A DNA stretch of 64,000 nucleotides from Bacteroidota bacterium (GCA_016213435.1 JACRAL010000093.1:13670-77669), one strand, 5' to 3'. Positions 24,105-44,125 are shown, counted from the stretch's first letter. Translations and numbers: made by a program. Notes: a model not told the origin generated them from the sequence alone.

Positions 24105-24128
24105 ACATCAATGAATTACAATCTTTTC

Positions 24129-26579: not shown

Positions 26580-26670
26580 GGTTACTAATTACGAATGGTT
26601 ACGAATATACTAATCATTATTTTTGTAAACATAATTGTTAACTACCTGCATGTATTCGCAATATTCGTAG

Positions 26671-27096: not shown

Positions 27097-27164
27097 GTTT
27101 GTATAAAGAGTTGCAAATATAAAAACTCTCATCATTGGGCACATTACATTAGTATATTTGAAGA

Positions 27165-27824
27165 ATGAAAATCCTCATTGTTTCTGCTACAAATTTTGAG
27201 ATTGCCCCACTGCTGAAGAACGTTAAAAAGATTCGCTCAGGCAAGAATCTTCATACTTTTTTCTTCGAAAAACATACGATTGATGTTCTTTTTACAGGAA
27301 TAGGGATGACTTCCACCGCTTTTCATCTTGGAAAAACTCTGAATAAAAAATATGATCTGGCAATTAATGCAGGAGTATCTGGAAGTTTTAAGAGAGAAAT
27401 TCCACTCGGAGCGGTTGTAAATGTAGTGAGTGACTGTTTTTCAGATATTGGTGCCGAGGATGGGAATAAGTTTCTGACGTTGAAGGAAATGGGACTAAAA
27501 GAGGTCTCGAGTCTAAAGCCTCAAATCTCAAGTCCTAAGATCAGAAAAACATTATCCGATTTACCTCAAGTAAATGGGATCACCGTCAATACCGTTCATG
27601 GAAATTCTGCAAGCATTAAAAAAGTTGTACAAAAATTTCATCCTGATATTGAAAGCATGGAAGGCGCTGCGTTCTTCTTTTCCTGCAACCGCGAAAAGAT
27701 TCCCTGCCTGCAGATTCGCGCCATTTCAAATTATGTAAAAAAAAGAAATAAGAAAAACTGGAAACTGAATCTGGCAGTAAAAAATCTTTGCAACTCAATA
27801 GAGCAAATCTTGCAAAATCTCTAA
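27165..27824 (+). CDS. PNP/MTA-nucleosidase-fold protein (futalosine hydrolase-like)
   Basis: 219 aa. The N-terminus (KILIVSATNFEIAPLL) and the GIGMTS/AGVSGSF motifs point to this fold. Confidence 0.45.
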   Translation: MKILIVSATNFEIAPLLKNVKKIRSGKNLHTFFFEKHTIDVLFTGIGMTSTAFHLGKTLNKKYDLAINAGVSGSFKREIPLGAVVNVVSDCFSDIGAEDGNKFLTLKEMGLKEVSSLKPQISSPKIRKTLSDLPQVNGITVNTVHGNSASIKKVVQKFHPDIESMEGAAFFFSCNREKIPCLQIRAISNYVKKRNKKNWKLNLAVKNLCNSIEQILQNL

Positions 27825-27886
27825 ATGAGATTTTATGGAAACAGCATACTAATTGTATCATAACAATAACTTTTAAAAACATCCCA

Positions 27887-29515: not shown

Positions 29516-29646
29516 TACGAGCCAAGTATTACTTCTTCAACTCGCAGATTTTTTACCGGAACAGGCAAAATAGAAATAGGATTTCCTCAGACATAGGGAT
29601 TTCGTACCCGTATTTTTATTACATTCGCGACCCTTTTAAACAAAGT

Positions 29647-31446
29647 ATGCAAAAAATCAGAAACATCGCCATTATCGCCCACGTTGACCACGGAAAAACT
29701 ACCCTCGTTGACAAAATTCTTCATCAGTGCCAGCTCTTTCGTGAAAACCAGGAGACAGGAGATTTAATTCTCGACAATAATGATCTGGAACGGGAGCGCG
29801 GAATCACAATTCTCGCAAAGAACGTTTCGGTAAAATACAAGGATACAAAAATCAACATCATTGATACTCCAGGCCACGCAGATTTCGGAGGTGAAGTAGA
29901 ACGCGTACTGAACATGGCAGACGGAGTTCTTCTGCTGGTTGATGCTTTTGAAGGACCGATGCCACAGACAAGATTTGTTCTGCAAAAAGCATTGGCGCAA
30001 GGATTGAAAGCAATCGTTGTCATCAATAAAGTTGACAAACCAAATTGCCGTCCGGATGAGGTGCATGATGCCGTGTTCGAACTTTTCTTTAATCTTAACG
30101 CTACCGAAGATCAATTGAATTTTCCTACGATTTATGGTTCATCAAAACATGGCTGGATGAATACAGATTGGAAAAATCCAACCACTACCATTCTTCCTTT
30201 GCTCGATGCTATTGTGGAGCATATTCCTTCTGCACCCATTCGCGAAGGCACCTTGCAAATGCAGATCACTTCGCTGGATTATTCATCTTTCATCGGCAGA
30301 ATCGCAGTTGGAAGAGTTTTCAGAGGAGAAATTAAAGAAAATATGCCTTTCTCTCTTGTGAAGAGAGATGGGAAAATTTTAAAACTCAGAATACGGGAGA
30401 TATTTACGTTTGACGGACTTGAAAAGAAAAAGGTTCCTTTTGTAAAATCAGGAGACATATGCGCTGTAACAGGCATTGAAGGTTTCGACATCGGTGATAC
30501 CATTGCTGATTTTGAGAATCCGGAAGGACTCATTCCCATTGCGATTGATGAGCCTACGATGAGCATGATATTTACCATTAACAATTCTCCTTTTTACGGA
30601 CGTGATGGAAAATTCGTAACCTCGCGCCACCTGAAAGAAAGACTGGACAGAGAGCTTGAAAAAAATCTCGCTCTCCGCGTAGAAGAAACAGGATCCCCTG
30701 ATTCTTATAATGTTTTCGGAAGAGGAATTCTTCATCTTTCCATTCTTGTTGAGACGATGAGAAGAGAAGGATATGAACTACAATTGGGGCAACCTCAGGT
30801 TATCATTAAGGAAATTGACGGAGTAAAACATGAACCTATTGAAGTGCTTACTGTTGATACACCGCAGGAATGCACAGGAAAAGTGATAGAATTTGTGAGC
30901 CAGCGCAGAGGAGAAATGCTGGTGATGGAACCTAAAGGAGACTTGGTTCGCATGGAGTTTGATATTCCAGCGCGTGGACTGATAGGATTGAGAAACGCCA
31001 TCCTCACAGCCACAGCCGGAGAGGCAATCATGGCTCATCGCTTAAAAGATTTTGAACCATGGAAAGGAGATATTCCGGGCAGAAATTCCGGAGTTCTTAT
31101 TTCCAAAGAAAAAGGACCTGCTGTTGCATTTTCAATAGACAGACTGCAAGACAGAGGAAAATATTTTGTTGAACCGGGAGATGAGATATATCCCGGACAA
31201 ATAATCGGGGAACACATTCGCCCCGATGACCTGGTGATAAACATCTGCACAGAAAAAAAACTGACTAACATGCGCGCTTCTGGAAGTGAAGAAAAGATGC
31301 GCATTGCACCTAAAATTAATTTCTCTCTGGAAGAAGCGATGGAATACATTCAGAAAGACGAATTAGTGGAAGTAACGCCAAAGCATATCCGCATGAGGAA
31401 AATTGTTCTCGATGAGAACGAAAGAAAGCGTTCCGAGAAGAAATAA
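29647..31446 (+). CDS. typA: Translational GTPase TypA/BipA
   Basis: 599 aa with the GTP-binding motifs AHVDHGKTT and DTPGHADF and EF-G-like domains. Confidence 0.95.
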   Translation: MQKIRNIAIIAHVDHGKTTLVDKILHQCQLFRENQETGDLILDNNDLERERGITILAKNVSVKYKDTKINIIDTPGHADFGGEVERVLNMADGVLLLVDAFEGPMPQTRFVLQKALAQGLKAIVVINKVDKPNCRPDEVHDAVFELFFNLNATEDQLNFPTIYGSSKHGWMNTDWKNPTTTILPLLDAIVEHIPSAPIREGTLQMQITSLDYSSFIGRIAVGRVFRGEIKENMPFSLVKRDGKILKLRIREIFTFDGLEKKKVPFVKSGDICAVTGIEGFDIGDTIADFENPEGLIPIAIDEPTMSMIFTINNSPFYGRDGKFVTSRHLKERLDRELEKNLALRVEETGSPDSYNVFGRGILHLSILVETMRREGYELQLGQPQVIIKEIDGVKHEPIEVLTVDTPQECTGKVIEFVSQRRGEMLVMEPKGDLVRMEFDIPARGLIGLRNAILTATAGEAIMAHRLKDFEPWKGDIPGRNSGVLISKEKGPAVAFSIDRLQDRGKYFVEPGDEIYPGQIIGEHIRPDDLVINICTEKKLTNMRASGSEEKMRIAPKINFSLEEAMEYIQKDELVEVTPKHIRMRKIVLDENERKRSEKK

Positions 31447-31629
31447 TTGAGCAATATATTTTTGCATTGTCATGATAAGCGTACCCGAAACATCTATTAT
31501 TAAAAAAAATCCTTCCATTATGTCCATGGTGACATTTGTGTAATGATTATGATTTTTGAGGTGTCTCTATGCAGATTATGTGGTTGATGCCACATCCTTT
31601 GCTCCACTTGAAGAAAGAAATGAAGTTGT

Positions 31630-32382
31630 TTAAAGTTGACGTAGTAAAATCACAGTACATGCTAATAGGTTGAGAGCTTTCCAATGAATTTTATTTGTTT
31701 CAAAACGCACCAAAAGTGCCTTGAATCCATCCATCCAAGCATTTGTTCTCTCTATGACAAATCTGCATTTGTAGAGCAAATCGTCAAAAATATATTCAGC
31801 AGGATTCCCGTTTCTTTTATTCTGGTCAATATTGGATATGATGTCATTTTGGTAGCAATAATTGCGAAACTCTTTTGTGTCAAAACCCGAATCAGCATTT
31901 AAAAACAGTCCCTCTGTAGGAATTGTTGAATCGCGTATGTCCTGCAACATGGTATCAACGGTCTTCTCTAAATTATAGGCATCATTATGATTGCCCTCTA
32001 CCGCTTCGCTGCAAGCCAATGGCGTGCCTTGATTGTCAGCTATGATAAGCATATTGCTTGTCTTGCATTTTTTTCTTCCTTGATATGCTACTGCTTCTCC
32101 TCCACGTTTGGAAGGGGTATGCGTACCGTCCAATTGTATGCTGGATAAATCAAGTATGCCCTTATGCTTTTCTAATGTCTTGTTCCAAACCATTTCCCAA
32201 CTACCATCTTTACACCATTTCTGAAAATGGTAGTAAACACTTTGCCATTTGTATCTGGTTCTAAAAAATTGCTTCATGGGTAATTCTCTCCATTGACATC
32301 CTGTTTTTAACCTGAATAGTATCGCTTCTACTACGTGTACTTGTTTTACTTTGGTGTTGCCTAAATGATTGCCAAATTTCAA
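31630..32382 (-). mobile_element. IS5-family (DDE) transposase gene, possibly 5'-truncated
   Basis: 250 aa containing LKTGCQWRELP and the C-terminal DDE region. It begins with TTG and lacks the usual ~25-aa N-terminal segment. No terminal inverted repeats were identified. Confidence 0.75.
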
Positions 32383-32559
32383 ATGTGGGCAAATCTCTTT
32401 TTTATTGTATTTTTGTTTATCATTTTTTTTCTTCTTTTTTGAAAGAAAGATGCGGATTATTGTTTAGCAATATTTTGTCGTCTTTCTTTCTTTTAAACAG
32501 CCAACCTTAAACAACTTCAATTAGTAAATCGGATTCAATACCTGTAATAATAAAGATAA

Positions 32560-32637
32560 CCGAACAAATAAAGGTACAGTTCCTATAAAACCTTGAACTG
32601 TTCTTGTTCAACTTTGAGTAGTTCCTGTACAACCTTA
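32560..32637. repeat. About 80-bp leader sequence, direct repeat of 39679..39757
   Basis: CCGAACAAATAAAGGTAC(A/C)GTTCCTAT(A/G)AAACCTTGAACTGTTCTTGTTCAACTTTGAGTAG... is about 95 percent identical in both copies. Confidence 0.8.
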
Positions 32638-33170
32638 AACTGCCCTTATGAAACCTTGCACTTCTTTGATGCAACATTGAGCAACTTCTGTGCAACCTTG
32701 AGCAACTCCTGTGTAACCTTAAACAGCCCCTACGCAACATTGATCAGTTCCTGTGTAACCTTAAGCAGACCCTACACAACCTTGAGCAGTTCCTGCGTAA
32801 CCTTGAGCAGCTCCTGTGTAATCTTGCACTGTCTTGATGTAATGTTGCGGAGGAGCAAATACACATGTGGAAGTAGCAAGCACATGTGTGGAAGGAGCTG
32901 ACACATGTGTGGAAGGAGTAAGCACACATGCGGAAGTAGTAGGCACATGTGTGTAATGAACGAGTACATGTGTGAAAGAAGCGAGTACACATGTGGAAGG
33001 AGCAAGCACATGTGTGGAAGAAGCTGGTACATGTGTGGAAGAAGCGAATACACATGTGGAAGTAGCAGTCATATGTGTTGAAGTAGCGAGTACACATGTG
33101 GAAGAAGACGGAACATGTGTTTTTGCACTAAAAACACATGTGTATGCAATAAATACACATACCTTAGCGT
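32592..33170. repeat. 21-bp minisatellite of about 27 units
   Basis: Strict 21-bp periodicity. The consensus switches near 32845 from ACCTTGAGCAGNTCCTGTGTA to ACATGTGTGGAAGNAGCNAGC. No single frame stays open across the array. Confidence 0.85.
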
Positions 33171-33191
33171 TAAAGCAATAAATCATTCGAT

Positions 33192-33830
33192 ATGAGAAAC
33201 ATTATTCCAAAGCTCGGACTCAAGTTTCTGCGCGATGCTGAGCTTACCGAGTATGCGTATGAAAAGGTGGAAAAGATAAACGCTGCTGCCGGGTTTGCCG
33301 GCATTGTTCCCTCCGCAGCCGATGTGAGAGCCAAAACCCTGCAATACGATGCCGCGCTTGTGAAAGCGGATAACGGAACAAGGGCGGACACTGCAAAGAA
33401 AAACGCCCTGCGCACAGAACTGGAACAAATGCTTATGTATCAGGCGTCAGATGCAGCCCGGATTGCCAGCGGAGATATGGCATTGTATTTAAGATCGGGG
33501 TATGCGGCAAAGAATGTGAAAGGGAGCCCGGGCGGTGAACTTCCTGAAGTAAGGGGAGTGCAGCTCTCTTATGGCAACAATACCGGTGAGCTGAAAATAA
33601 AATGGAATACGCTGCTCAAAGCGCAAAACTTCATTGTGCAGGTGTATGCGGACAACGCCCACCCCGAAGCATCCCTCATTAAAGAATATTTTTTCAATAA
33701 AATAGGAAGAAAGAAAACCACTCTGAGCGATCTGCCATCGGGGAAAATTGTTTTTGTAAGGGTAAGGGCTAATGGCGGAAGCACCGGGCAGGGACCCTGG
33801 AGTGACGTTACGGAGAAGAGGGTGCCGTGA
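33192..33830 (+). CDS. Hypothetical protein with a possible Ig/FN3-like C-terminal domain
   Basis: 212-aa ORF. Confidence 0.4.
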   Translation: MRNIIPKLGLKFLRDAELTEYAYEKVEKINAAAGFAGIVPSAADVRAKTLQYDAALVKADNGTRADTAKKNALRTELEQMLMYQASDAARIASGDMALYLRSGYAAKNVKGSPGGELPEVRGVQLSYGNNTGELKIKWNTLLKAQNFIVQVYADNAHPEASLIKEYFFNKIGRKKTTLSDLPSGKIVFVRVRANGGSTGQGPWSDVTEKRVP

Positions 33831-33922
33831 AGTATTATACGAAACGCTAAAAGGAACGAATGAACGAATAAATACAAGGGCTGTTATTCGCTGATTCGTT
33901 TTTGTTCGGGATTCGTCCCTTT

Positions 33923-36061
33923 TTATTTATTGATGATGAGCTTTTTTGTTGCTGTTCCTTGATCGGATTTTACTTGCAGGAAGTAAATTCCTTGCTCCAA
34001 CCCTGAAGGGAGAGAAACAGAAAATGTATCAGCGCCTTTTAGGGACGGAGCATCTTCATACACTTTTTCTCCCATTACATTATAGATACCTAATTCTCCT
34101 TTTGCCAACTGCCCATTGCTTATTTGTATTTGAAATGTTCCGCTCGTGGGATTGGGGAAAATAATAAAATCATTTTGCAGAGAAAAAGCAGGAACGTCAT
34201 TAGTACAACTTATAGTAGTTATAAAAGTGTCTATACAACTATGTGTATCTGTAATTATTAATGTATATGTGCCTTGAGTAAGTCCCGTTGACGTTGCCGT
34301 GGTTTGTCCATTGTTCCATGAGTAATAATATGGAGGGGTACCTCCTGTAACAGTAGCCACAATTTTGCCATCGTTACCAGTGCAAGAGGAAGCATTGGTA
34401 ATTGCAAGATTATTTGAAATGGCAAGTGGTTGTGTAATAGCAATTACATTTTGAACCGAACAACCAAAAGAATCGGTAACTGTTACCGTATAATTACCTG
34501 CTGACAAACCCGTAATAGCAGAAGTTGTTTGCCCGGTATTCCAAAGATAGGTATAGGGGGCAGTTCCGTTTGAGGAAATTTGAGTGGCATAACCATTATT
34601 TCCTCCGTTACAACTAATGTTAGTAGAAATATTATTAAGTGATATACAAGGAGGGTTTAACTTTGCGATAAAAATATCTCCTCCTCCTGCATCAACAGGA
34701 TTTAAAGTAGTGCTCCCAAAAGCATGTGTATTAATATCAAAACCTCCTGATAATAACACCTTGCTGTTAGGGTCTACACATATACTATACCCCTGATCAT
34801 AGAAATTTCCCGAAGGATTTGTGGCCCAAACCACATTACCTGAACTATCATATTTTACTACAAAAGTAACGGTAGCGTTACTCGGACCAGTATTGGGGAT
34901 AACATAACTGCCAAAGGTAATAGCGGAGCTATTAAAAGTTCCGATTATATATATAGTATTATTATTTGTATCAACACTTATACTAGTACCATAATCAGAA
35001 CCACTTCCTCCAGCATTTTTGGCCCACACTACATTGCCAGAAGCATCATATTTAGTTACAAAAAAATCTTCTGTATAGGGGTAAGTGTGTACGCCTGTTA
35101 AGGTTGTATTTCCTAAAAAAAGTTGGCTACTTATAAAACTACCTGTTACATATGCATTACCACCATTATCAGTGCTGATCCCTAAACCAGTGTCCCAATT
35201 ATCTCCATTACCACTTTTAGCCCATATCACATTACCCAATGAATCATATTTTACAACAAAAATATCAGCGCCACCGAAATTTAATAACGTATCGGTACCA
35301 ATTCTCATGGAGGCACCGCTATAATAACCCGTTATAAACACATTGCCGCTTACGTCTGTACAAATGCTATTGCCTGAATCGTTACAAGTGCCATAGTCTC
35401 TTTTCGCCCATACTGCATTTCCTGATGCATCATATTTTACAATAAAAACTTTGGTGGAATTTGTACCGTTTGGAAATACTGTACTGCCAAAGCTAATGGA
35501 AGAACTAACAAAACTTCCTGTTACATAAACATTACCACTATTATCAGTGCAAATGCTATTCGCAACATCGTCCATGGTTCCACCCACTCCTTTAGCCCAT
35601 AGTACATTCCCTAAAGAATCATACTTTACAACAAAAATATCTTCAGTACCGCTTCCGCCTGCATTTGTTAATGTAGTGCTGCCAAAAGTAATATTGGAAC
35701 TACTAAAAAATCCGGTAACATAGACATTTCCGTTAACATCTGTACTGATACCGTTGCTTACATCGATTTTCGTTCCCCCTGCTCTTTTAGCCCAAACAAC
35801 ATTCCCTGATGGATTGTATTTTACTATAAAGAAATCACTACTGTAAGATCCAGCATTTGTTAAAGTAATACTGTCAAAAGTAATAGTTGATGCAACAAAA
35901 AACCCTGTAAAATATACATTGCCATTAAGATCCGTACACAAATGATTACTATATCCATTGGATCGACCAATTACACCTTTAGCCCATATCCAATTTGGCA
36001 CTTGGGCATTTGCAACGTAAATACAAATCACAAACAAAGCAGCCGCGTAAAGTTTTTTCAT
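33923..36061 (-). CDS. Secreted SBBP beta-propeller repeat protein with a type IX secretion C-terminal sorting domain
   Basis: 712 aa. Repeated GNVYVTGFF/GNAYVTGSF motifs. C-terminal IIFPNPTSGTFQI...GIYFLQVKS...KLIINK. Confidence 0.7.
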   Translation of the reverse strand: MKKLYAAALFVICIYVANAQVPNWIWAKGVIGRSNGYSNHLCTDLNGNVYFTGFFVASTITFDSITLTNAGSYSSDFFIVKYNPSGNVVWAKRAGGTKIDVSNGISTDVNGNVYVTGFFSSSNITFGSTTLTNAGGSGTEDIFVVKYDSLGNVLWAKGVGGTMDDVANSICTDNSGNVYVTGSFVSSSISFGSTVFPNGTNSTKVFIVKYDASGNAVWAKRDYGTCNDSGNSICTDVSGNVFITGYYSGASMRIGTDTLLNFGGADIFVVKYDSLGNVIWAKSGNGDNWDTGLGISTDNGGNAYVTGSFISSQLFLGNTTLTGVHTYPYTEDFFVTKYDASGNVVWAKNAGGSGSDYGTSISVDTNNNTIYIIGTFNSSAITFGSYVIPNTGPSNATVTFVVKYDSSGNVVWATNPSGNFYDQGYSICVDPNSKVLLSGGFDINTHAFGSTTLNPVDAGGGDIFIAKLNPPCISLNNISTNISCNGGNNGYATQISSNGTAPYTYLWNTGQTTSAITGLSAGNYTVTVTDSFGCSVQNVIAITQPLAISNNLAITNASSCTGNDGKIVATVTGGTPPYYYSWNNGQTTATSTGLTQGTYTLIITDTHSCIDTFITTISCTNDVPAFSLQNDFIIFPNPTSGTFQIQISNGQLAKGELGIYNVMGEKVYEDAPSLKGADTFSVSLPSGLEQGIYFLQVKSDQGTATKKLIINK

Positions 36062-36159
36062 TGCATTAGTTTTAAGAAAAGAATAGATGAATGTAAGAAA
36101 TTAAGTGATTACTCAGCAGGAAAGATAAAACAAGGTTGATTAGAGATAGCGTAATTTTG

Positions 36160-36203
36160 TCCGAACAGTTCTCTCCGATGTTCATCGGAGAGACACGGAT
36201 GGG
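36160..36203. repeat. 42-bp direct repeat containing the perfect palindrome TCTCTCCGATG-TT-CATCGGAGAGA
   Basis: Matches 39603..39646 with about 5 mismatches. Together the two copies bracket the restriction-modification module. Confidence 0.8.
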
Positions 36204-36210
36204 AAGGAAT

Positions 36211-36672
36211 TTAAAACAGCGAAAGCTGTTCGGGCTTATCGGTAGAGGTCTTTTCTCCCGATAATTGTCGGGATTTCGCTTCGCTCAATTTTTCCTGAGA
36301 TTTTGTTTCTTCTTCTTCTTGAGATTGCTTCACTTCGTTCGCAATGACGGTGGAGCTTGCTTCCTTCAATATTTCCTGACGCTGTTCTACTTTTTCTTCA
36401 AAGAATTCCATATCGGCAATAGCCAGTTCCATTTCGCTGGGAACATCGGCAATATTGTTTATGGCTTTGCGAATGCGCGCCTCAATTACCTGACTGCGCC
36501 AAATTCTTAAAAGTTCAAGAGAAGATGTCATCTTTTCCTTCTCGGCAATTACGGATTGCTTATGAATAATATCAAGGTGTTTTTCTAACTTCTTGTCAGA
36601 AAATGTGGTCATCTGCGCAATATATTCTTCTGCGTGTTCAAGGGCTTGACGTATTTGGATTTCGGTGCTCAT
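36211..36672 (-). CDS. Acidic coiled-coil protein of unknown function, translationally coupled to the RM gene
   Basis: 153 aa. Its ATG overlaps the stop of 36669..39557 (ATGA). Confidence 0.5.
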   Translation of the reverse strand: MSTEIQIRQALEHAEEYIAQMTTFSDKKLEKHLDIIHKQSVIAEKEKMTSSLELLRIWRSQVIEARIRKAINNIADVPSEMELAIADMEFFEEKVEQRQEILKEASSTVIANEVKQSQEEEETKSQEKLSEAKSRQLSGEKTSTDKPEQLSLF

Positions 36673-39557
36673 TCTTGCTTGCCTTCAATTATTTTGATTT
36701 CCTTGTCGGTTAAATTATACAATTCATACACAAGCTGGTTTATTTTTTCTTCGCTATGTTCAATGCGTTGTTTTAAATGCTCAGTTTTGCTTTGGAGTTT
36801 TTCTTCTTGGAATTCTTCGTTCAATTTCAGAAGCAAATCAACGTGTTTTACAATTTCATCATGTTTTTCTTTATTAAATTTATTTTCAAAATCAATTTCT
36901 CTTATCGGTAAATTTGCTACGTTGGTTTTCTTTACTTCCGCTAGTGCTTCACCTTTTTCTGGATTCAGAGTTTGATAGTACCAATTTAAGGTTTTAGAAT
37001 TGATAATGCCAAGGAGAAAAAGTAAACTGACCTTTGTATTTTCTTTTGGAACAAGTACGTGCATATTATTCAGGCAGAGCAGTTTTGTTTTATCAAGAGT
37101 AGCAATTAAGCTATCTCCAGTTTGGCGCATAAATATCTTTTCAGGCGCGTCAAAATTGGCTGATTGTCTTGGCTCTGCAAGCCATTCACCGAACTTAATA
37201 TACCTTTCCTCGAGAGCATTTATAACATAGCGGTTCATGTCCTTCCCTCTTAAATACTTTCTATATGCTTTATCCTTTTTCTTGTCACTATCAAAAACAC
37301 GATTTTCAACATCTCCTCTGGTTTGCTTTGGATTTCCTTTACCAACTTGATAAGGTTTTATTCCGACATTAATATCAATATAGGTTTCGAGTGGTTTGGT
37401 ATGTTCTTGTGTTTTTTTGAAAAGCTTTTTTTCAAATTCATTCAAGAAAATATTTACCACTTCGCCATCTTGATCTATCCATTCTTTTTGAGAATGAATA
37501 AATTCGGTGTGCTTGCCATTAAATAATGGCTTTCCTTTCTCGACAACGGTAATTCTAACTTTGTTCGACTTAGGATTCTTTTTTGAAAGAAGAATAATTT
37601 CTGTATCTACAGTTACATCAGGAAATACGGGGTCTTTGAAATGCACGATTTCATTAACGGCTACAGTTTCAAAAATAAATTTTCTTAATCCTTTTTGCAA
37701 AAGATTAGTAAGCCAAGGATTAGGAATGATCATTCCAAAATTTCCATCATTTTTTAAAAGAACCTTGACGGATTGTTCGAGAAAGATTAAATAACTATCT
37801 AACTGATAATTTTGGTTAGAATATTTTTTAAGTAAATACTTTTTCTGCTCCTCTGAAAATTCTGCACCATACGGAGGATTACCGATAACTACATCAAAAG
37901 CTCCATTTTTAAATACATCAGGGAATCCTTTTTTCCAGTTGAACGGATGAATTTTTGATGAACTATCAAAATCAAATTCTTCATCTAAATCTATTAGACT
38001 ATTTCCATTCTTAATATTATTATCCAAATCGGGAAGAATGCGCTCGTGAAAAACACTTAACTGCTGTTTGATGCTGGCTTCGGTTTCGCCTTCCATACAC
38101 TTGAGGAGCAAACTTAGTTTGGTTACTTCCACCGCGTTTGCGTCAATATCCACTCCGAAAATATTATTGAGCAGTATTTTCTTTTTCTCGGAAGTGGTAA
38201 GCCCGCCTCCATTCTTTCCTGTGAGGGAAGGAGCTAATGCTTTTGCTTTCTTGGCTTCTGCGGGATGATGGTGATACCAGTTCACATGGTATTGAACCAA
38301 ATATTGAAACGCACCGATAAGAAACGAACCGCTTCCGCAGGCGGGATCAACTATTTTCAGTTGAGCTATTTCTTTCGGTGTTTTGCCTTCAATGAGTTTT
38401 CCGACTGTGTTTTTTACAATGTACTCCACAATGTATTGGGGCGTGTAATACACACCGCCTGCCTTGCGCACTTCGGGCTTTACTTCAATGCGTGCGCTGT
38501 GCGAAGATGTGATGCGTATTACTTTTCCGAGAAACTGTTCGTAAGCATTTCCGAGAACCTCCACGGGCATTACGCGAAAAACATAGGGAGAGGGGTAATA
38601 TAGATCCTCTATAATTTTTTTCAGCACTTTATTTTTTATCGTGAGCTTTTCCGAAATGCTGTCTTTCTTAAAATCAAATAACCCGCTGTTGTATTTATCA
38701 TCGGCTCGCTTGAATAAATCATACAAGTTGTCGTAAGAATTGCCGTGTGAAACTGCTTTTTGCAACTGCCCGTATTGCTCAACTCCCCGATCTTCACAGA
38801 AGCGAAGAAAAATCAGCCGGTCAATGGTTTGCTGAACGACAAAATTTATTTCTTCTTCATTCAGTTTTTTATTTTCAAGGGCAATGCTTGTCGCCAAATA
38901 TTTTCTCCAGCTATCGAGGGATTCAACAAAATCTTTGTCGAGCGTTTGTGTTCCTTTTTTGTAGGTGTCGCTCTGAACAAATTTATCGAAGTGTCCGCTG
39001 TAAACTGCTTCGTGCGAAAAAGTGTCGTAAAGAAAATCAAACTCTTTTATGTAGTCCTCGAAATGAATGTACTTGATGCGCGCAGAACTCGCGCTGTCGC
39101 TTTGCTTGGGGCTTCTGGTGCAATCGTAAATAATAAATTCTTCAAAGTTGGTAAGGATTGAAACGGGAGCTTGCGCGCTTCGCCCATAAATGCGCAACTG
39201 GTATGATGCTTCCCTGTTTGTCTTGAGTGAAACGGATGGCTTTTTTGCTTCCACAAAGAAAAGACGTTTGTCACTCTGCCCCGCTACGCGGAAACCATAA
39301 TCGGGGGCTTTCATTTGTCCCTTAACTCTTACTTTATCTTCGTGAATTACTTCGCGGTAAGATTCTATCCTGTCTTCTTCATGGCTCACGTCCCATCCCA
39401 AGGCGTGAAAAAACGGATTGATAAGTCCGATTCTTGTCTTGGTTTCGTTATAATCAGCAGTATGATATTCCTCCCGATGCTCTCGGAAGCGTTTAACAAG
39501 TCCTTCTATGGTGGCTTTCGCCTGGTCTCTGGTCATTTGCATAAAAAAAGCAGCCAA
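36669..39557 (-). CDS. Type IIG (single-chain) restriction-modification enzyme with an N-terminal PD-(D/E)xK nuclease, a gamma-class N6-adenine methyltransferase, and a target-recognition domain
   Basis: 962 aa. N-terminal D-YGFRV...FVEAKK. Methyltransferase motif I VDPACGSGSFL and motif IV NPPYG. Confidence 0.8.
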   Translation of the reverse strand: MAAFFMQMTRDQAKATIEGLVKRFREHREEYHTADYNETKTRIGLINPFFHALGWDVSHEEDRIESYREVIHEDKVRVKGQMKAPDYGFRVAGQSDKRLFFVEAKKPSVSLKTNREASYQLRIYGRSAQAPVSILTNFEEFIIYDCTRSPKQSDSASSARIKYIHFEDYIKEFDFLYDTFSHEAVYSGHFDKFVQSDTYKKGTQTLDKDFVESLDSWRKYLATSIALENKKLNEEEINFVVQQTIDRLIFLRFCEDRGVEQYGQLQKAVSHGNSYDNLYDLFKRADDKYNSGLFDFKKDSISEKLTIKNKVLKKIIEDLYYPSPYVFRVMPVEVLGNAYEQFLGKVIRITSSHSARIEVKPEVRKAGGVYYTPQYIVEYIVKNTVGKLIEGKTPKEIAQLKIVDPACGSGSFLIGAFQYLVQYHVNWYHHHPAEAKKAKALAPSLTGKNGGGLTTSEKKKILLNNIFGVDIDANAVEVTKLSLLLKCMEGETEASIKQQLSVFHERILPDLDNNIKNGNSLIDLDEEFDFDSSSKIHPFNWKKGFPDVFKNGAFDVVIGNPPYGAEFSEEQKKYLLKKYSNQNYQLDSYLIFLEQSVKVLLKNDGNFGMIIPNPWLTNLLQKGLRKFIFETVAVNEIVHFKDPVFPDVTVDTEIILLSKKNPKSNKVRITVVEKGKPLFNGKHTEFIHSQKEWIDQDGEVVNIFLNEFEKKLFKKTQEHTKPLETYIDINVGIKPYQVGKGNPKQTRGDVENRVFDSDKKKDKAYRKYLRGKDMNRYVINALEERYIKFGEWLAEPRQSANFDAPEKIFMRQTGDSLIATLDKTKLLCLNNMHVLVPKENTKVSLLFLLGIINSKTLNWYYQTLNPEKGEALAEVKKTNVANLPIREIDFENKFNKEKHDEIVKHVDLLLKLNEEFQEEKLQSKTEHLKQRIEHSEEKINQLVYELYNLTDKEIKIIEGKQE

Positions 39558-39602
39558 ATATACACTTTATGAGGGAGAAATTTGGATGGTTTATAAATTT
39601 TG

Positions 39603-39646
39603 CCCGAGCAGTTCTCTCCGATGTTCATCGGAGAGACTCTGATGGG
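39603..39646. repeat. Second copy of the 42-bp palindrome-containing direct repeat
   Basis: See 36160..36203. Confidence 0.8.
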
Positions 39647-39678
39647 TTATGCGCAGAGTTCCTGAACAGAAAACACTG

Positions 39679-39776
39679 CCCGAACAAATAAAGGTACCGT
39701 TCCTATGAAACCTTGAACTGTTCTTGTTCAACTTTGAGTAGCTCCTGTGTAACCTTAAGCAGACACTATGCACACC
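39679..39776. repeat. Second copy of the minisatellite leader plus about 4 repeat units
   Basis: See 32560..32637. Overlaps the 3' end of the cyclase gene. Confidence 0.75.
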
Positions 39777-41607
39777 CCTCCGCAATTAACACCCGATTCA
39801 ATCTTTCCAATTGTTTTTGTTTTTCCGGCTCACGCAGCTTCCTTGCAGTCTTGGTAAAATATGTATGCTCGCCCAAAAACTTTATCTGCATCCGGCTCCA
39901 TTGCTTTTCGTCAAGAGGTGTTCCGTTGGCATTTAATTCATCAAACAAGGTTTTTCCGATGGAAGAGAAATCGGTTCTGCCAAGGTAATCCAGATCGGCA
40001 TCCACAAGAATTTCTTCCAGTATATTTTTAGGAGACTGAGGGATTTTTGTTGCCATGATCATTCCGCAGATACCTTCTATTTCCTCAGAAGAATAGTTGA
40101 ACTTCGGTAGAATCTCACGGGCTATTTCACAGCCGATCACTTCGTTTTTCCAATACTGCTTAATAAAACCCGAATCATGAAACAGCGCTGCCACTTTCAC
40201 CAGTTCTGTTTTTTCCTTGCCGATGTTTTCTTTTAATGCCAATACGGAAGCTGCATCGCAAACATCCAGGGTGTGATGCAAGCCATGATAGTAAAGTTTC
40301 CCGGGCAGTTCTTTTTCCAGTTTGTCAAGGATATATTTTTTAACCAGAAGAAATCGTTCCGATGTTTTTTCGCTTGTCACAAAATACATATCCATATCGC
40401 CCATTCCCTTGGCGGCAAGTTTCCCGCGATACTCGCAATCAAAATGATCTTTTATAATCCGGTATGTTTCTTCCGAAACATTTACTTTGCCGGGCATACC
40501 GCTGCTTTCCATCCGCGAAGCAGTGTTAACGGTATCGCCCCAAACATCGTACGTAAATTTTTTAGTGCCCACCACTCCGGCTACTAAGGGGCCTGAATGA
40601 ATACCAACGCGCATTTCCCAAGCAATGTCAGATCTTCCTTTTCGCTTCTCGAGGAAATCGATCATCTCAAATGCCGCCCGAATGCATTGTATAGCATGTG
40701 TACCTGACTCTTTGGGAAGTCCGCATACAGCCATGTAGGAATCGCCAATGGTTTTTATTTTTTCAATATCATACTTTTCCATGATATGATCAAAGGCTTT
40801 GAAAATATCATTGAGTTCATTCACCAATTTCTGCGGAGAAATTTTTGCCGATGTGGCAGTAAATTCTTTAAAGTCAGTGAACAGAATAGTGGATTCATTG
40901 TAGCGCAAGGGTGTAATAAATCCTTTTTGCTTCAATTCTTCAGCTACTTCTTCCGGAAGGATATTGTGGAGCAGCCGCTCCGACTCTTCCTTTTCCGCAC
41001 GCAATTCCTTGGTTCGTTCCTGCACTAATTTTTCCAGTATCTCATTTTGCTTTTCCATTAACTCCCTGCGTTCCTGTTCCTGTTTAAACAGCTCTTTTGC
41101 CAGGCGCTGGTTTTCTATCGAGCTCACAGAAATATTGGTAAGTAATTGCAAAAAATTTAAGTGCTTAATAATATGGCTCACGTTAAGTTCATCATTGCTG
41201 ACATCGCCCAACAACAAATATGCAAGTGGCTTGTCCCCATGATACACTGGAACCACCATGTCAAAATATTTCAAGGAATCATTCTGATGAGAAGTGACTG
41301 AAGTAATTTCTTTCAGATGGATCAGATCGCGCTCCACATCAATTTCACCTAATTCCCCATCCATGAGTCCATGGGATAGCACACATCGCCACTGAGAGGA
41401 TTTGCTGAACAAAGCAAATTTCTCAATCTTTAAATGTTCTTTTAAGAAGCGTTTGAATTTTTCAAGTATGGTTTGCGTGGAAAAATTATGATTGATGGCG
41501 TTAGTAATATCAAGCAATACATCCAGCTGCAGTTCTTTAATTGTAAGCTTGCTTTTATAGCGCTCAATCTTTTTTCCGACAATATCTTTTATTTCAAATT
41601 TGTCCAT
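39766..41607 (-). CDS. GAF / class III adenylate-guanylate cyclase / HD-domain fusion protein
   Basis: 613 aa. Cyclase core FTDFKEFT...GDSYMAVCGLP...VGIHSGPLVAGVVG. C-terminal HD motifs HGLHHTLDV and ALFHDSG. Confidence 0.75.
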   Translation of the reverse strand: MDKFEIKDIVGKKIERYKSKLTIKELQLDVLLDITNAINHNFSTQTILEKFKRFLKEHLKIEKFALFSKSSQWRCVLSHGLMDGELGEIDVERDLIHLKEITSVTSHQNDSLKYFDMVVPVYHGDKPLAYLLLGDVSNDELNVSHIIKHLNFLQLLTNISVSSIENQRLAKELFKQEQERRELMEKQNEILEKLVQERTKELRAEKEESERLLHNILPEEVAEELKQKGFITPLRYNESTILFTDFKEFTATSAKISPQKLVNELNDIFKAFDHIMEKYDIEKIKTIGDSYMAVCGLPKESGTHAIQCIRAAFEMIDFLEKRKGRSDIAWEMRVGIHSGPLVAGVVGTKKFTYDVWGDTVNTASRMESSGMPGKVNVSEETYRIIKDHFDCEYRGKLAAKGMGDMDMYFVTSEKTSERFLLVKKYILDKLEKELPGKLYYHGLHHTLDVCDAASVLALKENIGKEKTELVKVAALFHDSGFIKQYWKNEVIGCEIAREILPKFNYSSEEIEGICGMIMATKIPQSPKNILEEILVDADLDYLGRTDFSSIGKTLFDELNANGTPLDEKQWSRMQIKFLGEHTYFTKTARKLREPEKQKQLERLNRVLIAEGCA

Positions 41608-41639
41608 TCCATAGATAAAAAGATGTTACTACTCAGCTC

Positions 41640-41735
41640 CAAAATACAATGGAACGCAGATGACAGAGATTCAGCAGATACTCGCAGGTTTTATCAATAG
41701 AAATCATAATAATCAGCGTCATCAGCGTTCTATTC
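41640..41735. repeat. Palindromic repeat element (AAATACAATGGAACGCAGATGACA...GTCATCAGCGTTC)
   Basis: 13-bp arms are reverse complements with 1 mismatch. Same family as 44018..44125. Confidence 0.65.
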
Positions 41736-41760
41736 TTTTATCACTAAAGAGATTCAACCA

Positions 41761-43977
41761 TCAACTCTCCTGCAATGTCTTCAATTCCTTATCGCTTTGC
41801 CGCAAGCGGTTTGAGATAACGAATGCCAGTTTTTCAAAAAACTTTCCTGCAACTTCAGGATGTTTGGCTGCTATCTCATTAAATTTCTTGCGCGATAAAA
41901 CATACAGCGTGGAATCATCCAGTGAAAGAGCATCGGCAGAACGTTTCCGGAAGTCCAGAAACGACATATCACCAAAGAAACCTCCTTTAGGAATAGTGAC
42001 TAAATGATGAAAAATACCGTGAGCCAAAGGAAGTACAATTTTTACGTTTCCATTTCGGATAAAATAAATTTCGTCACCTTCGTCTTTAGTTTTAAATATC
42101 CGCTCATCTTTCTTGTAAGTTTTCTCCTCCAGGCTTGATGCAAATGTTTTCAAAGCTTCTTCAGAAAATCCGTTGAAGAATTCTATTTCACTAAGAGATA
42201 AAAGCCGGTTATCCGTTTTCACTTTTTCCTGAAGCAGAATATCATCTTCCACCCATTCCATCGCACTATCCAGCTCGTCAAAAAATTTAAGATTTGCTGT
42301 TTCGGCTAAGCCAAGATATTTCAGGTATTCTTTTACATTTTGTCCGGAAGGTAAACTAAGAGGAACAGAAGTGAAAATTAAAAAACCATTCTTCTCTTTT
42401 ATCCGTGCCAAAATTTGTTTCATGCGGTTTGCTGCGGTAAAATCCATCGAGAGCACCCTGCGCATATCCATTAATATGTATTTACAATCGCCCATTACCG
42501 GTTCAATTTCACTGAGAAGCTGATCTGCCGTTCCGAAAAAAAGTTGTCCCTGTAATTCAACAATGAGCGTGTGCTGTCCTTTGTCTTCCAGAATTTTTCG
42601 CTCGTTCTCAAGCCGACTTTTCTTTGAGAATTTCTGATTGCCAAATGCTTTTCTGCGAATCACCGAAGTGCGCATCTGTTCCCTCAGAAAAAGAATGATC
42701 GCCATGGCAATGCCTACGCCCGCTGCTGTAATCAAACTCATGCTCACTGCTGAAATCACTACGGCAAGAATCACCACAAAATCAAATACAGTGGAACTAT
42801 GTTTCAGCAGGGAGAAACTCTTAAAATCGATCATGCGTAGACCAACCACAATAAGTATTCCTGCCAACGCAGCATATGGAATCCATGCAACTAATTTTCC
42901 AAGCAGAAGCAAAACAAGCAAGGCAGCAATCCCGACAAAAACTCCGGACAGTTTTGTTTTTCCTCCGCTGGTAAGGTTAACGAGTGTGGGTCCCATAGTT
43001 CCGCCACCCGGAATACCGCAAAGCAGCGCAGAACCGATGTTTCCTATTCCCTGACCGACCAATTCCTTGTTTGAATTGTGCCGCGACAAAGTGAGTGCAT
43101 CCAGTATCACGCAGGTCTTCAATGTATCTATCGAAAGCAACACAGCCAAAGTGAAAACAGGTGCAATTATTAAATTGATATTATGAAAATCAAGAGTAGA
43201 AGCAAGTGTCCACTGATTGACAAACATCCCGTACAGATCAGAAAGAGATGCTGATATCGGTCCGATGATAAATGGATTATGATCCAGCAAAAGCAAGGAT
43301 GGATTTATTGCAGAAGCGCTGAAATAACAAACGACTCCGGCAAACAGCGCGATGATAGCCGCAGGAATTGCCTTAATTATTTTTGGTGCAAGGTACATCA
43401 CCACAATGGTTGCAACACCCACGCAGATGCTTTCCCACTTCCAATCCTGTATCATAAAAATTCCCTGCCATATTTTTATTTCTTTCGGAAGTCCTAAAAG
43501 TTTTGGCAATTGCCCTGTAAGAATTAAAACTCCTACACCACTAAGATAACCTGCAACTACAGGATAGGGAATGTATTTGATTACTTTTCCTCCACCGATC
43601 TTTCCAATGATCAGTTGCACCACTCCTGCAAACAACGACACAAGCGTGATATAAACCGGGATGACATCAGCCGGAATGCTATTCTTGCTTACCAATTCCG
43701 TTGCAAAAACGGCAAGCACTGCAGCAGCCGGAGCACAAGGCGCAGAAACTAAACTTTTGGTTCCGCCAATAAGAGAGGCGATCAGTCCAAGCGCAACAGT
43801 TCCCATGATTCCGCCAATGGCAGCTTTGCCTGAGAAAGCAGGACCCAATGGTGCGTAAATGATCAAGCCAAATGCAATGGCGGCAGGAAGCGCAACCAGC
43901 ATGGCGGTTGTTCCTCCGAGAACATCTCCCACAAAAGTTCCGGAAGATGATTTTTTTTCTTTGATAATTGTTTCCAT
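41761..43977 (-). CDS. SulP/SLC26-family anion transporter with a STAS domain and a C-terminal cyclic-nucleotide-binding domain
   Basis: Polytopic membrane domain, STAS, and a cyclic-nucleotide-binding domain (FGDMSFL...RSADA). The track ORF starts at 44046; the likely start METIIKEKK is at 43977. Confidence 0.75.
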   Translation of the reverse strand: METIIKEKKSSSGTFVGDVLGGTTAMLVALPAAIAFGLIIYAPLGPAFSGKAAIGGIMGTVALGLIASLIGGTKSLVSAPCAPAAAVLAVFATELVSKNSIPADVIPVYITLVSLFAGVVQLIIGKIGGGKVIKYIPYPVVAGYLSGVGVLILTGQLPKLLGLPKEIKIWQGIFMIQDWKWESICVGVATIVVMYLAPKIIKAIPAAIIALFAGVVCYFSASAINPSLLLLDHNPFIIGPISASLSDLYGMFVNQWTLASTLDFHNINLIIAPVFTLAVLLSIDTLKTCVILDALTLSRHNSNKELVGQGIGNIGSALLCGIPGGGTMGPTLVNLTSGGKTKLSGVFVGIAALLVLLLLGKLVAWIPYAALAGILIVVGLRMIDFKSFSLLKHSSTVFDFVVILAVVISAVSMSLITAAGVGIAMAIILFLREQMRTSVIRRKAFGNQKFSKKSRLENERKILEDKGQHTLIVELQGQLFFGTADQLLSEIEPVMGDCKYILMDMRRVLSMDFTAANRMKQILARIKEKNGFLIFTSVPLSLPSGQNVKEYLKYLGLAETANLKFFDELDSAMEWVEDDILLQEKVKTDNRLLSLSEIEFFNGFSEEALKTFASSLEEKTYKKDERIFKTKDEGDEIYFIRNGNVKIVLPLAHGIFHHLVTIPKGGFFGDMSFLDFRKRSADALSLDDSTLYVLSRKKFNEIAAKHPEVAGKFFEKLAFVISNRLRQSDKELKTLQES

Positions 43978-44006
43978 AGTGTTATTCTTTGGAATTATTT
44001 TAATAC

Positions 44007-44125
44007 AGGACTTACGCAAAGAAATACAATAGAACGCAGATGACACAGATTGTTATGATTCCCGCTGATTTAATCCGCGATTATCTGTTTAATCAGCGTC
44101 ATCTGCGTTCCATTACGTAAGTCCT
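44007..44125. repeat. About 120-bp nested hairpin element
   Basis: Outer arms AGGACTTACG (44007-16) and CGTAAGTCCT (44116-25). Inner arms GAACGCAGATGAC (44032-44) and GTCATCTGCGTTC (44098-110). Confidence 0.75.

What the first reader, a model, noticed from the sequence alone, without database searches (positions are those of the whole stretch)
32560..39776. A ~7.1-kb segment bounded by direct copies of the minisatellite leader, a candidate genomic islet
The ~80-bp sequence preceding the array (CCGAACAAATAAAGGTAC.GTTCCTAT.AAACCTTGAACTGTTCTTGTTCAACTTTGAGTAG...) plus ~4 units recurs at 39679-39776. Between the two copies lie the minisatellite, a 212-aa protein, a 712-aa type IX secretion cargo protein, and the Type IIG restriction-modification module. 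The IS5 transposase sits just outside the left copy. Recombination between the copies would delete or invert this block.
Basis: seen in the sequence. Interest (0 to 1): 0.5.

Follow-up and report, generated by a model that had tools for sequence, protein, structure and literature searches.

The report
Repeat-bounded variable block at a rearrangement junction
Two near-identical ~90-base copies of the end of a 21-base repeat array do bracket a 7.1-kb block that close relatives lack, but the block looks like a patchwork left by duplication and rearrangement, with a restriction-modification cassette inserted inside it, and not like a self-contained mobile island.

Summary
Window 32560-32650 and 39680-39770 are direct repeats (81/91 identical; core 60/62; none expected by chance).

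The 'islet' reading is only partly supported.
- All of 31452-39800 is missing from the closest relatives. There, TypA is followed by NIF3 and the cyclase by other genes, on separate contigs. So this is a synteny breakpoint, not an insertion into a conserved site.
- The block holds no integrase and no tRNA, and its composition matches the flanks.
- The repeated sequence is absent from both orthologous sites in relatives.

The 'leader' is not an att site. It is 19 nt plus the first units of a 21-bp-period array. The right copy is a truncated, contracted duplicate of it.

Such arrays (about 5 to 14 units, core plus spacer) lie directly upstream of 15 of 22 non-redundant loci that hold a homologue of the 212-aa gene. 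Three of those loci have a small LytTR gene just upstream of the array.

A second, nested repeat pair (51 nt, with a hairpin) exactly brackets the Type IIG restriction-modification cassette. This is the best candidate for a true insertion with long target duplication.

As direct repeats, the two copies could delete the block but not invert it.

The parts
29647..31446 (+). TypA/BipA GTPase gene; the last gene of the left synteny block (homology with relatives ends at 31451)
   Evidence: Pfam. L036 and L037 align with the window up to 31448-31451 and then continue with NIF3/Zn_ribbon_9/Aldedh genes that are absent from the window.
31618..32522 (-). IS5-family insertion sequence, a single copy. 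Terminal inverted repeats 31618-31649 and 32491-32522; transposase 31630-32382.
   Evidence: I2; Pfam DDE_Tnp_4/DUF4096; NCBIfam NF033580, 131.7 bits, above the cut-off of 110. No second copy in the window.
32560..32650 (+). Left copy (A1) of the direct repeat: 19 unique nt (CCGAACAAATAAAGGTACA) plus array units 1-3 and part of unit 4
32579..32851 (.). Array 1: 13 units of 21 nt, consensus GtTCCTgTGcAACCTTGAgCA. Its reverse complement matches the arrays upstream of 212-aa homologues elsewhere (17/21 to L059, 15/21 to L044).
   Evidence: In 2000 shuffles the best match never reached 17 and reached 15 or more with P=0.001.
32852..33124 (.). Array 2: 13 units of 21 nt, consensus GgAGCaAGtACATGTGTGGAA. 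It has a conserved 12-nt core holding the palindrome ACACATGTGT, then a variable spacer. It ends about 70 nt before the ATG.
   Evidence: (D1).
33192..33830 (+). 212-aa gene: N-terminal three-helix bundle plus C-terminal fibronectin type III domain, no signal peptide, no Pfam/NCBIfam/PADLOC match
33849..33922 (.). Long imperfect hairpin between the convergent 212-aa and cargo genes. It contains a 27-nt motif that recurs in unrelated loci.
   Evidence: minus-strand fold z -3.25.
33923..36061 (-). 712-aa type IX secretion cargo protein (SBBP beta-propeller repeats, SprB repeats, Por_Secre_tail)
36153..36203 (+). Inner direct repeat, copy 1 (D7-1), with the hairpin TCTCTCCGATG TT CATCGGAGAGA. It lies 8 nt beyond the stop codon of the 153-aa gene.
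   Evidence: D7, I3; z -3.6.
36211..36672 (-). 153-aa partner gene of the RM enzyme; its start overlaps the RM stop codon
   Evidence: Homologous small genes follow the RM gene in L065 (57% identity) and L067 (43%).
36669..39542 (-). Type IIG restriction-modification enzyme (957 aa from the ATG; HSDR_N + Eco57I/N6_Mtase + TaqI_C)
   Evidence: P0159; PADLOC REase_MTase_IIG, 4.8e-204.
39596..39646 (+). Inner direct repeat, copy 2 (D7-2), 47/51 identical to D7-1. It lies 54 nt upstream of the RM ATG.
   Evidence: z -3.8.
39680..39772 (+). Right copy (A2) of the direct repeat: leader, units 1-2, a unit like unit 9, and 11 nt more. It overlaps the cyclase stop codon.
39766..41607 (-). Adenylate/guanylate cyclase-HD protein; the first gene of the right synteny block. 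Its C-terminus is intact.

Best explanation
What the repeat is. The repeated ~90 nt is the outer end of a 21-bp-period array of protein-binding sites. It is not an element end or an att site. Arrays of this kind are the conserved upstream region of the 212-aa helical+Fn3 gene family in these Bacteroidota. Each unit has a conserved core of about 9-13 bp followed by a variable spacer. The likely binding protein is a LytTR-type DNA-binding protein, because LytTR sites are direct repeats with a 21-bp period.

What the right copy is. A2 is a truncated and contracted duplicate of the left end of array 1. I infer that a segmental duplication or an ectopic recombination between arrays left it behind, followed by a deletion that fused it to the stop codon of the cyclase gene.

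What the block is. The 7.1 kb between the copies is a lineage-specific patchwork at a synteny breakpoint, made of three parts:
- the array plus 212-aa gene module, which is itself present or absent between related genomes
- a type IX secretion cargo gene, a habitual neighbour of that module
- a two-gene Type IIG RM cassette that I infer was inserted with duplication of a 51-bp hairpin-bearing target

An IS5 copy landed 37 nt outside the left repeat.

Shown: the repeats; the array architecture and its conservation across homologues; the synteny break on both sides; the nested repeat pair; the cassette nature of the RM gene pair.

Inferred: the order of events; LytTR binding; that the 34-nt perfect run and 60/62 core could occasionally support RecA-dependent deletion of the block.
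For: 1. The repeat is real and unique to these two places.
2. A1 is in the same 21-nt register as the 26-unit array, and A2 keeps that register and unit order: units 1 and 2, then a unit like unit 9.
3. In 661 kb of non-redundant fetched DNA, 23 regions pass a lag-21 autocorrelation threshold. Fifteen of them lie within 400 nt upstream of a 212-aa homologue, in 22 such loci.
4. Conservation inside the units is a contiguous core plus spacer, with no 3-nt periodicity. This argues for DNA sites and against coding sequence.
5. Array 1 matches the L059, L044 and L047 arrays at 17, 15 and 14 of 21 positions.
6. Small stand-alone LytTR genes sit directly upstream of the array in L003 (E 1.5e-13), L007 and L047 (E about 2e-4 each, just below the Pfam cut-off). 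LytTR sites are 9-10-bp direct repeats with 11-12-bp spacers (PMC2766830; PMC6193735).
7. Synteny. L036 aligns with the window up to 31451 and then continues with NIF3. L008 matches the window by protein from about 50.6 kb down to 39841 and then continues with other genes. L037 and L008 are two contigs of one MAG.
8. The array+212 module lies between the epimerase and T9SS genes in L006. The homologous genes in L008 are 198 nt apart with no module between them.
9. The D7 repeat pair brackets exactly the RM gene plus the 153-aa gene. That gene pair recurs in two unrelated contexts. RM homologues at 53-58% identity occur in CPR bacteria, Bacillota and Leptospiraceae.
Against: - No genome close enough to show an empty site or a single-copy leader was found, so the order of events cannot be reconstructed.
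- The window has no LytTR gene next to the array. A small HMM built from the three related proteins found none anywhere in the window.
- Unit cores fit the published LytTR consensus only partly. That comparison was made by eye and was not scored.
- Arrays of 8-26 units are far longer than the usual pair of LytTR sites.
- The orientation of array units relative to the gene is not constant between loci.
- The A1/A2 core is 97% identical while neighbouring units are only about 70-75% alike. That could mean selection on A2 as a working site and not mere recency.
- The source is a MAG contig, so the join across the 0.9-kb IS5 is not independently verified.
Confidence: 0.55

Rival explanations
1. 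A discrete genomic islet. In this reading the 7.1-kb block entered as one piece, and the two leader copies are the duplicated target or attL/attR. It could then excise again by recombination between them. One version is Campbell-type integration of a circle carrying T9SS gene, D7, leader, arrays and 212-aa gene.
For: - Direct repeats of 62-91 nt flank a block under 20 kb that holds R and M functions and no other mobility gene. [quoted passage not shown]
- The block is absent from relatives.
- The gene order in the block is a circular permutation of the order seen in L006 and L059: T9SS gene (-), array, 212-aa gene (+).
Against: - There is no integrase or tRNA.
- The leader is absent from the TypA and cyclase 3' flanks of relatives, and those flanks are not adjacent there.
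- A1 continues in register into the array.
- Composition is indistinguishable from the flanks.
- There is no match in plasmid, phage or viral collections.
- The leader 24-mer has no match in GTDB species representatives or JGI metagenomes.
Confidence: 0.2
2. Assembly artefact. In this reading the contig is a chimeric MAG join at repeats (IS5 and/or the leader), so the 'block bounded by repeats' does not exist in one genome.
For: - The source is a MAG contig.
- The k=31 Logan contigs of run SRR12113407 break inside both leader copies, at 32592 and 39712.
- The two flanks are not adjacent in relatives, and a 0.9-kb IS lies at the left junction.
Against: - The longest perfect run shared by the copies is 34 nt, far below read length, and diagnostic mismatches flank it.
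- The independent Logan contigs reproduce both right-hand contexts at 99.97-100% identity: leader to arrays to 212-aa gene to T9SS gene to D7-1, and leader to cyclase to SulP.
- The window contains no N.
- Only the TypA-IS5-A1 join is unverified. The cyclase-side junction with A2, D7-2 and the RM gene contains no long repeat.
Confidence: 0.1
3. A2 is a working mini-operator kept by selection. In this reading, four units of the same binding-site family sit 140-230 nt upstream of the RM/153-aa operon, and formerly of the cargo gene, on the minus strand. One DNA-binding protein would then co-regulate the 212-aa gene and the minus-strand genes. This is compatible with the best explanation.
For: - The A1/A2 core is 60/62 identical while adjacent units within array 1 are only about 70-75% alike.
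- Read on the minus strand, A2 has the orientation that the homologous L044 and L059 arrays have relative to their gene.
- T9SS cargo genes neighbour the module in at least six of the contexts examined.
Against: - No regulator has been identified in the window.
- Identity of 60/62 is equally explained by a recent duplication. The D7 pair is 47/51 identical, which is not clearly different from the leader pair on so few positions.
- By eye, the RM gene has its own TAnnTTTG-type box next to its ATG (read; not tested with any tool).
Confidence: 0.25

Closest known systems
RM gene insertion with long target duplication (Nobusato et al. 2000; Furuta, Abe and Kobayashi 2010, PMC2853133)
   Same: R and M functions lie inside a short insert (3.4 kb for the D7 pair, 7.1 kb for the leader pair). 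Direct repeats longer than 30 bp flank it. No integrase or transposase lies inside. The RM family is scattered across phyla.
   Different: No empty-site genome is available, so target duplication is not demonstrated. For the outer (leader) pair, the repeat is part of a tandem array and is absent from the orthologous sites of relatives. That fits array duplication better than target duplication.
LytTR-family operators (AgrA, ComE, SilA, HdrR/BrsR): pairs of 9-10-bp direct repeats spaced 11-13 bp apart
   Same: The period is 21 bp. Each unit has a conserved core of about 9-13 bp and a variable spacer. The arrays lie just upstream of the regulated gene. Small stand-alone LytTR genes are adjacent in three related loci.
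   Different: There are about 5-14 units per array in related loci, and 26 counting both arrays in the window, in place of two. Many cores are palindromic. The fit to the published consensus is only partial and was judged by eye. No LytTR gene lies next to the array in this window. Binding is untested.
Classical genomic islands or integrative elements bounded by attL/attR
   Same: Direct repeats bound a block of strain-specific genes that includes a defence gene.
   Different: There is no recombinase and no tRNA or conserved target. Composition is like the host. The flanks are not contiguous in relatives.
IS-associated rearrangement junctions and variable regions
   Same: An IS5 copy lies 37 nt from the left repeat, at a synteny breakpoint.
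   Different: Only one IS copy is present, so there is no composite transposon. The right-hand breakpoint at the cyclase stop codon has no IS.

Membership tests
Integrase/att-bounded genomic island | Site-specific recombinase gene inside or next to the block | tested here: not met
   Pfam on all block genes. tblastn with a tyrosine integrase from L064 finds nothing in the window. The only mobility gene is the IS5 DDE transposase, which lies outside the block.
Integrase/att-bounded genomic island | Flanking repeats correspond to one copy at the empty site in relatives, often at a tRNA 3' end | tested here: not met
   No tRNA in the window. No leader-like sequence at the TypA or cyclase 3' flanks of L036, L037 or L008. 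The flanks are not adjacent in relatives.
Integrase/att-bounded genomic island | Absent from closely related genomes | tested here: met
   Nothing from 31452-39800 is found at the orthologous loci of L008-L013 or L036-L042.
Integrase/att-bounded genomic island | Composition or codon usage deviates from the host | tested here: not met
   Block GC 0.395 against flanks 0.395-0.401. RM codon-usage distance 0.057 against background 0.065 +/- 0.012. Tetranucleotide z below 2.
[quoted passage not shown] | R and M functions inside the insert, insert under 20 kb, repeats over 30 bp, no other mobility gene inside | tested here: met
   D7 pair: 51 nt, 47/51 identical, 3.4-kb insert. Leader pair: 62-91 nt, 7.1 kb. 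The Type IIG enzyme combines R and M functions.
[quoted passage not shown] | A related genome shows the empty site with a single copy of the repeat | not testable with these tools
   No relative carries the T9SS712/D7 neighbourhood. The best 212-aa homologue is 65% identical and the best RM homologue 68%. The leader 24-mer is absent from GTDB representatives and JGI metagenomes.
LytTR-type operator array | Direct repeats of about 9-10 bp recurring every 20-22 bp | tested here: met
   Strict 21-nt register over 26 units. Contiguous conserved cores of 9-13 nt with variable spacers. Literature spacing.
LytTR-type operator array | Cognate LytTR-domain regulator encoded nearby | tested here: inconclusive
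   Present directly upstream of the array in L003, L007 and L047, of which only L003 passes Pfam's cut-off. None found in the window with a three-sequence HMM. The position where it would lie is occupied by IS5.
LytTR-type operator array | Match to the consensus [TA][AC][CA]GTTN[AG][TG], and demonstrated binding | not testable with these tools
   Cores such as CAATGTTGA and CAAGGTTGA share the GTT centre only partly, and array 2 (ACACATGTGG) does not. This was judged by eye and not scored. Binding needs experiment.
Coding heptad-repeat minisatellite | An open frame across the array, with variation concentrated at third codon positions | tested here: not met
   Mean conservation is similar in the three codon phases, and conservation follows a core/spacer pattern. 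ORFs across the arrays are short, overlap in several frames and do not join the 212-aa gene. By contrast, the array at 5089-5328 lies in a complete lipoprotein ORF.
Composite transposon | Two IS copies flanking the block | tested here: not met
   There is a single IS5 copy in the window.

The most novel reading that the evidence does not exclude
The 'leader' would belong to an undescribed class of cis-element: long arrays of 21-bp units, each with a short and often palindromic core. The arrays turn over rapidly in sequence but keep their period. They are tied to a widespread uncharacterised helical+Fn3 gene family next to type IX secretion cargo genes. Orphan LytTR proteins would bind them as a cooperative filament-like operator.

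In this reading, recombination within and between such arrays (the A1/A2 pair, the in-register loss of six units, the flipped orientation of array 1) moves, duplicates or deletes the neighbouring cargo and defence genes. The arrays would then act as both regulatory switches and recombination hot spots.
Probability: 0.3. Interest if true: 0.65.

Novelty: new member of a known kind. Interest (0 to 1): 0.4.

Why it matters
As an islet, the block is ordinary. It is one more variable region with an RM cassette and long direct repeats, of a kind already catalogued for RM genes. Without a close relative or reads it cannot be shown to move.

Two results are useful.
- Explaining the 'leader' uncovered a conserved pairing of 21-bp arrays with a 212-aa Fn3 gene family, next to type IX secretion cargo genes and in three loci an orphan LytTR gene. 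No match to Pfam, NCBIfam, PADLOC or Rfam covers this pairing, and a narrow full-text search found no description of it.

If the arrays are multi-site LytTR operators, they would be an unusually large bacterial operator. They would also give a handle on how some type IX secretion cargo loci are regulated.

Tried and rejected
- Exact-pattern scans for a 24-mer of the leader found nothing in GTDB species representatives or JGI metagenomes. The copy number of the leader elsewhere in the source genome is therefore unknown.
- Exact-protein look-ups failed for TypA, for the RM enzyme from either start codon, and for P0159. The source contig and further Logan contigs could not be fetched, so the TypA-IS5-A1 and RM-A2 joins lack independent confirmation.
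- No Rfam family and no tRNA is present in the window.
- The leader has no significant RNA fold (z -0.5 to -1.4).
- The sigma-70 promoter and terminator scans were at background level.
- The 212-aa protein is unrelated to the 418-aa protein that follows the other 21-nt array.
- The fold search returned only generic Fn3 domains and gave no functional clue. The afdb50 library was unavailable.
- The 212-aa family is absent from IMG/VR viral contigs. The block has no DNA match in plasmids or phages.
- I considered the idea that the leader is the gene-proximal end of a leftward-facing array. I kept it only as a possibility, because unit orientation flips between loci.
- I considered a link between D7 and a MITE-like insert in L059. 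I dropped it because the shared string is only 9 nt.
- A 3-bp target duplication (AAT) for IS5 is ambiguous, because those bases may belong to the inverted repeats.
- RM cassettes in L065 and L067 have no flanking direct repeats.

Full report
**1. Observation**

The direct repeat is real. The repeat finder reports 32560-32650 and 39680-39770 at 89% identity over 91 nt (family D2). BLAST gives 79 nt at 93.7%, E 4e-28. The 62-nt core matches exactly twice in the window, against none in 100 shuffles.

Homology starts abruptly at 32560/39680 and fades about 93 nt in.

- two 21-nt arrays in one register
- a 212-aa gene
- a 712-aa SBBP/SprB/Por_Secre_tail cargo gene
- a 153-aa gene overlapping a 957-aa Type IIG RM gene (PADLOC 4.8e-204)

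An IS5-family element (31618-32522; NF033580 above its cut-off) ends 37 nt left of the left copy.

Two corrections. First, the repeats are direct, so they can delete or circularise the block but cannot invert it. Second, the 'leader' is 19 unique nt plus array units.

**2.

36153-36203 and 39596-39646 are 47/51 identical. Each holds a perfect 10-bp-stem hairpin (RNA fold z -3.6 and -3.8). Both occur only at these two places in the window. They bracket exactly the RM gene plus the 153-aa gene.

That gene pair is a cassette. RM homologues at 68% and 66% identity (the proteins encoded in L065 and L067) are each followed by a homologue of the 153-aa protein (57% and 43% identity). Their surroundings are unrelated: next to a Shedu defence gene in one case, and between YchF and PIG-L in the other. 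Homologues at 53-58% identity occur in CPR bacteria, Bacillota and Leptospiraceae.

**3. Is the 7.1-kb block an inserted islet?**

The window comes from an NCBI MAG, a 118-kb contig labelled 'Bacteroidetes bacterium'.

Left side. The closest relatives found are a JGI contig (L036; TypA 98% identical in protein, about 85% in DNA) and MAG palsa_971 (L037, L008). L036 aligns with the window from 17631 to 31451. It then continues with NIF3, Zn_ribbon_9, Aldedh and SecA genes. None of the L036 sequence beyond TypA matches the window.

Right side. L008 matches the window by protein from about 50.6 kb down to 39841, in the cyclase (84% identical). It then continues with a 588-aa gene and others that are absent from the window. 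More distant orthologous loci (L009-L013) all have SulP, cyclase and a conserved 287-aa gene in that order.

So everything from 31452 to about 39800 is lineage-specific. However, its two flanks are not neighbours in relatives. In palsa_971 they lie on different contigs, each with 10 kb of other genes beyond the break. This is a rearrangement junction, not an insertion into a conserved site.

Other points against a classical island:
- GC is 0.395 for the block against 0.395-0.401 for the flanks. RM codon usage and the tetranucleotide profile are within the window's background.
- There is no integrase, no tRNA, and no plasmid, phage or viral match.
- The leader sequence is absent from the relatives' orthologous flanks. 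A 24-mer of it is absent from GTDB representatives and JGI metagenomes.

**4. What the 'leader' is**

The arrays keep one 21-nt register from 32579 to about 33120.

A1's units 1-3 are units of array 1. A2 keeps the same register and order: units 1 and 2, then a unit 20/21 identical to unit 9, then 11 nt. This is an in-register loss of six units followed by truncation, ending within about 5 nt of the cyclase stop codon. The cyclase C-terminus itself is within the normal range of its orthologues.

The 212-aa protein has 38 homologues (43-65% identical besides the source's own entry), almost all from metagenomes and with no family assignment. Its model (pLDDT 87.8) is a three-helix bundle plus an Fn3 domain.

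Looking upstream of these homologues gave the most informative result. In 661 kb of non-redundant fetched DNA, 23 regions pass a lag-21 autocorrelation threshold. Fifteen of them lie within 400 nt upstream of a 212-aa homologue, in 22 such loci. The loci without an array are mostly truncated contigs, second genes of tandem pairs, or N-terminally different variants.

Unit sequences differ between loci, but the period is always 21 or 42 nt.

Within units, conservation forms a contiguous core of 9-13 nt plus a variable spacer, with no codon periodicity. Many cores are palindromic around ATG, for example TTGAATGTTCAA, TGCAATGTTGCA and ACACATGTGT.

Array 1 of the window, read as its reverse complement, matches the arrays of L059, L044 and L047 at 17, 15 and 14 of 21 positions. 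In 2000 shuffles, 17 was never reached. Array 1 is therefore the same element type, but flipped relative to its gene.

Three loci (L003, L007, L047) have a 108-123-aa stand-alone LytTR-domain gene directly upstream of the array. The Pfam E-values are 1.5e-13, 2e-4 and 2e-4, and only L003 passes the curated cut-off. LytTR proteins bind 9-10-bp direct repeats with 11-13-bp spacers, which is a 21-bp period.

Type IX secretion cargo genes adjoin the module in at least six contexts.

The module itself comes and goes. In L006 it lies between an epimerase gene and a T9SS gene. The homologous genes in L008 are 198 nt apart, with no module between them.

**5. Most likely history and mechanism**

The repeated segment is the end of a binding-site array, and A2 is a decayed duplicate of it.

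The gene order in the block is leader-arrays-212(+), cargo(-), D7, leader'. This is a circular permutation of the order seen in L006 and L059, which is cargo(-), array, 212(+). Two histories would produce that:
- a tandem duplication of such a unit, trimmed by deletions on both sides, on the left near the IS5 and on the right at the cyclase stop codon
- a Campbell-type homologous integration of a circular copy

The data do not separate these two.

The RM cassette then entered, or had already entered, at the hairpin, with a 51-bp duplication. The leader pair (2/62 to 5/79 mismatches) and the D7 pair (4/51) diverge to similar degrees.

I put 0.55 on this composite reading and 0.2 on a discrete islet with target or att duplication. 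I put 0.1 on a chimeric contig. A2 may in addition be a selected mini-operator (0.25; this is not exclusive of the others).

On the artefact reading: the Logan k=31 contigs break in the 34-nt perfect run of the leader. They nevertheless reproduce both right-hand contexts at 99.97-100% identity, and the window has no N. Only the join across the IS5 is unverified.

**6. Novelty and interest**

As a repeat-bounded variable block with an RM cassette, this is a new member of a known kind.

The array and gene-family association is not covered by Pfam, NCBIfam, PADLOC or Rfam. Two full-text searches turned up nothing on it (one returned only unrelated papers, the narrower one none), and these searches are far from exhaustive. 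It is the more interesting lead, but its mechanism is inferred and not shown.

Noticed in passing
window 4941-5378 (array 5089-5328), with 2999-4534, 5391-6647 and 6870-10310: The window's other 21-nt array is coding. It encodes heptad repeats (TPGASAL-like) in a 145-aa lipoprotein with a signal peptide and lipobox. A 418-aa protein with no family match and a 1146-aa SBBP/T9SS cargo protein follow it. A 511-aa TPR protein is encoded divergently upstream.
   Followed up: partly
window 59181-60737 (-) and 61090-64000: A 64%-identical paralogue of the 511-aa TPR protein again sits divergently next to two signal-peptide proteins. TPR proteins of similar size also neighbour the array+212 module in L007 and L044. 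Those two are about 30% identical to each other but show no detectable similarity to the window's TPR proteins.
   Followed up: partly
window 33864-33890; L060 930-956; L064 1327-1353; L067 5829-5844: A 27-nt motif, GAATAAATACAAGGGCTGTTATTCGCT, lies inside the long hairpin between the convergent 212-aa and cargo genes. It recurs at 26/27 next to an integrase and array in L060/L064, and at 16/16 immediately after the RM stop codon in L067. It may be a dispersed REP-like or terminator motif.
   Followed up: partly
L060 1-2853 and L064 59-2369: A tyrosine integrase gene lies next to a 42-nt-period array. In L060 two tandem 212-aa paralogues follow the array; L064 (an overlapping contig) ends within the first. 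This is the only context examined in which a recombinase adjoins the module.
   Followed up: no
L059 about 4610-4740: A palindromic, MITE-like insert of about 115 nt (terminal inverted repeats GTTACTGTTCGGG) separates the array from the 212-aa gene.
   Followed up: no
L058 211-1311 and L061 201-1296: Variants of the 212-aa family with a different N-terminus are preceded by a conserved ~150-aa ORF and have no 21-nt array upstream.
   Followed up: no
L002 (= window 32592-36346): The Logan contig from run SRR12113407 stops at window 36346, inside the 153-aa gene, where the window has no repeat. Possible causes are a coverage drop or strain variation within the RM cassette.
   Followed up: no
P0170 and P0178; L065 9027-10181: Some homologues of the Type IIG enzyme are fused to a Y1 (REP-associated) transposase domain, PF01797. 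In L065 the RM cassette sits next to a Shedu (SduA) defence gene.
   Followed up: no
window 39766-44046 and L008-L013: The cyclase-HD gene and the SulP transporter gene with a cyclic-nucleotide-binding domain are a conserved adjacent pair in all six orthologous loci. This suggests a local cNMP signalling unit.
   Followed up: no
L003 about 9640-9700: Besides its 42-nt array, L003 has three 21-nt units of the form GCAAACC-N9-GTTTC just downstream of the LytTR gene. This could be an autoregulatory site.
   Followed up: no
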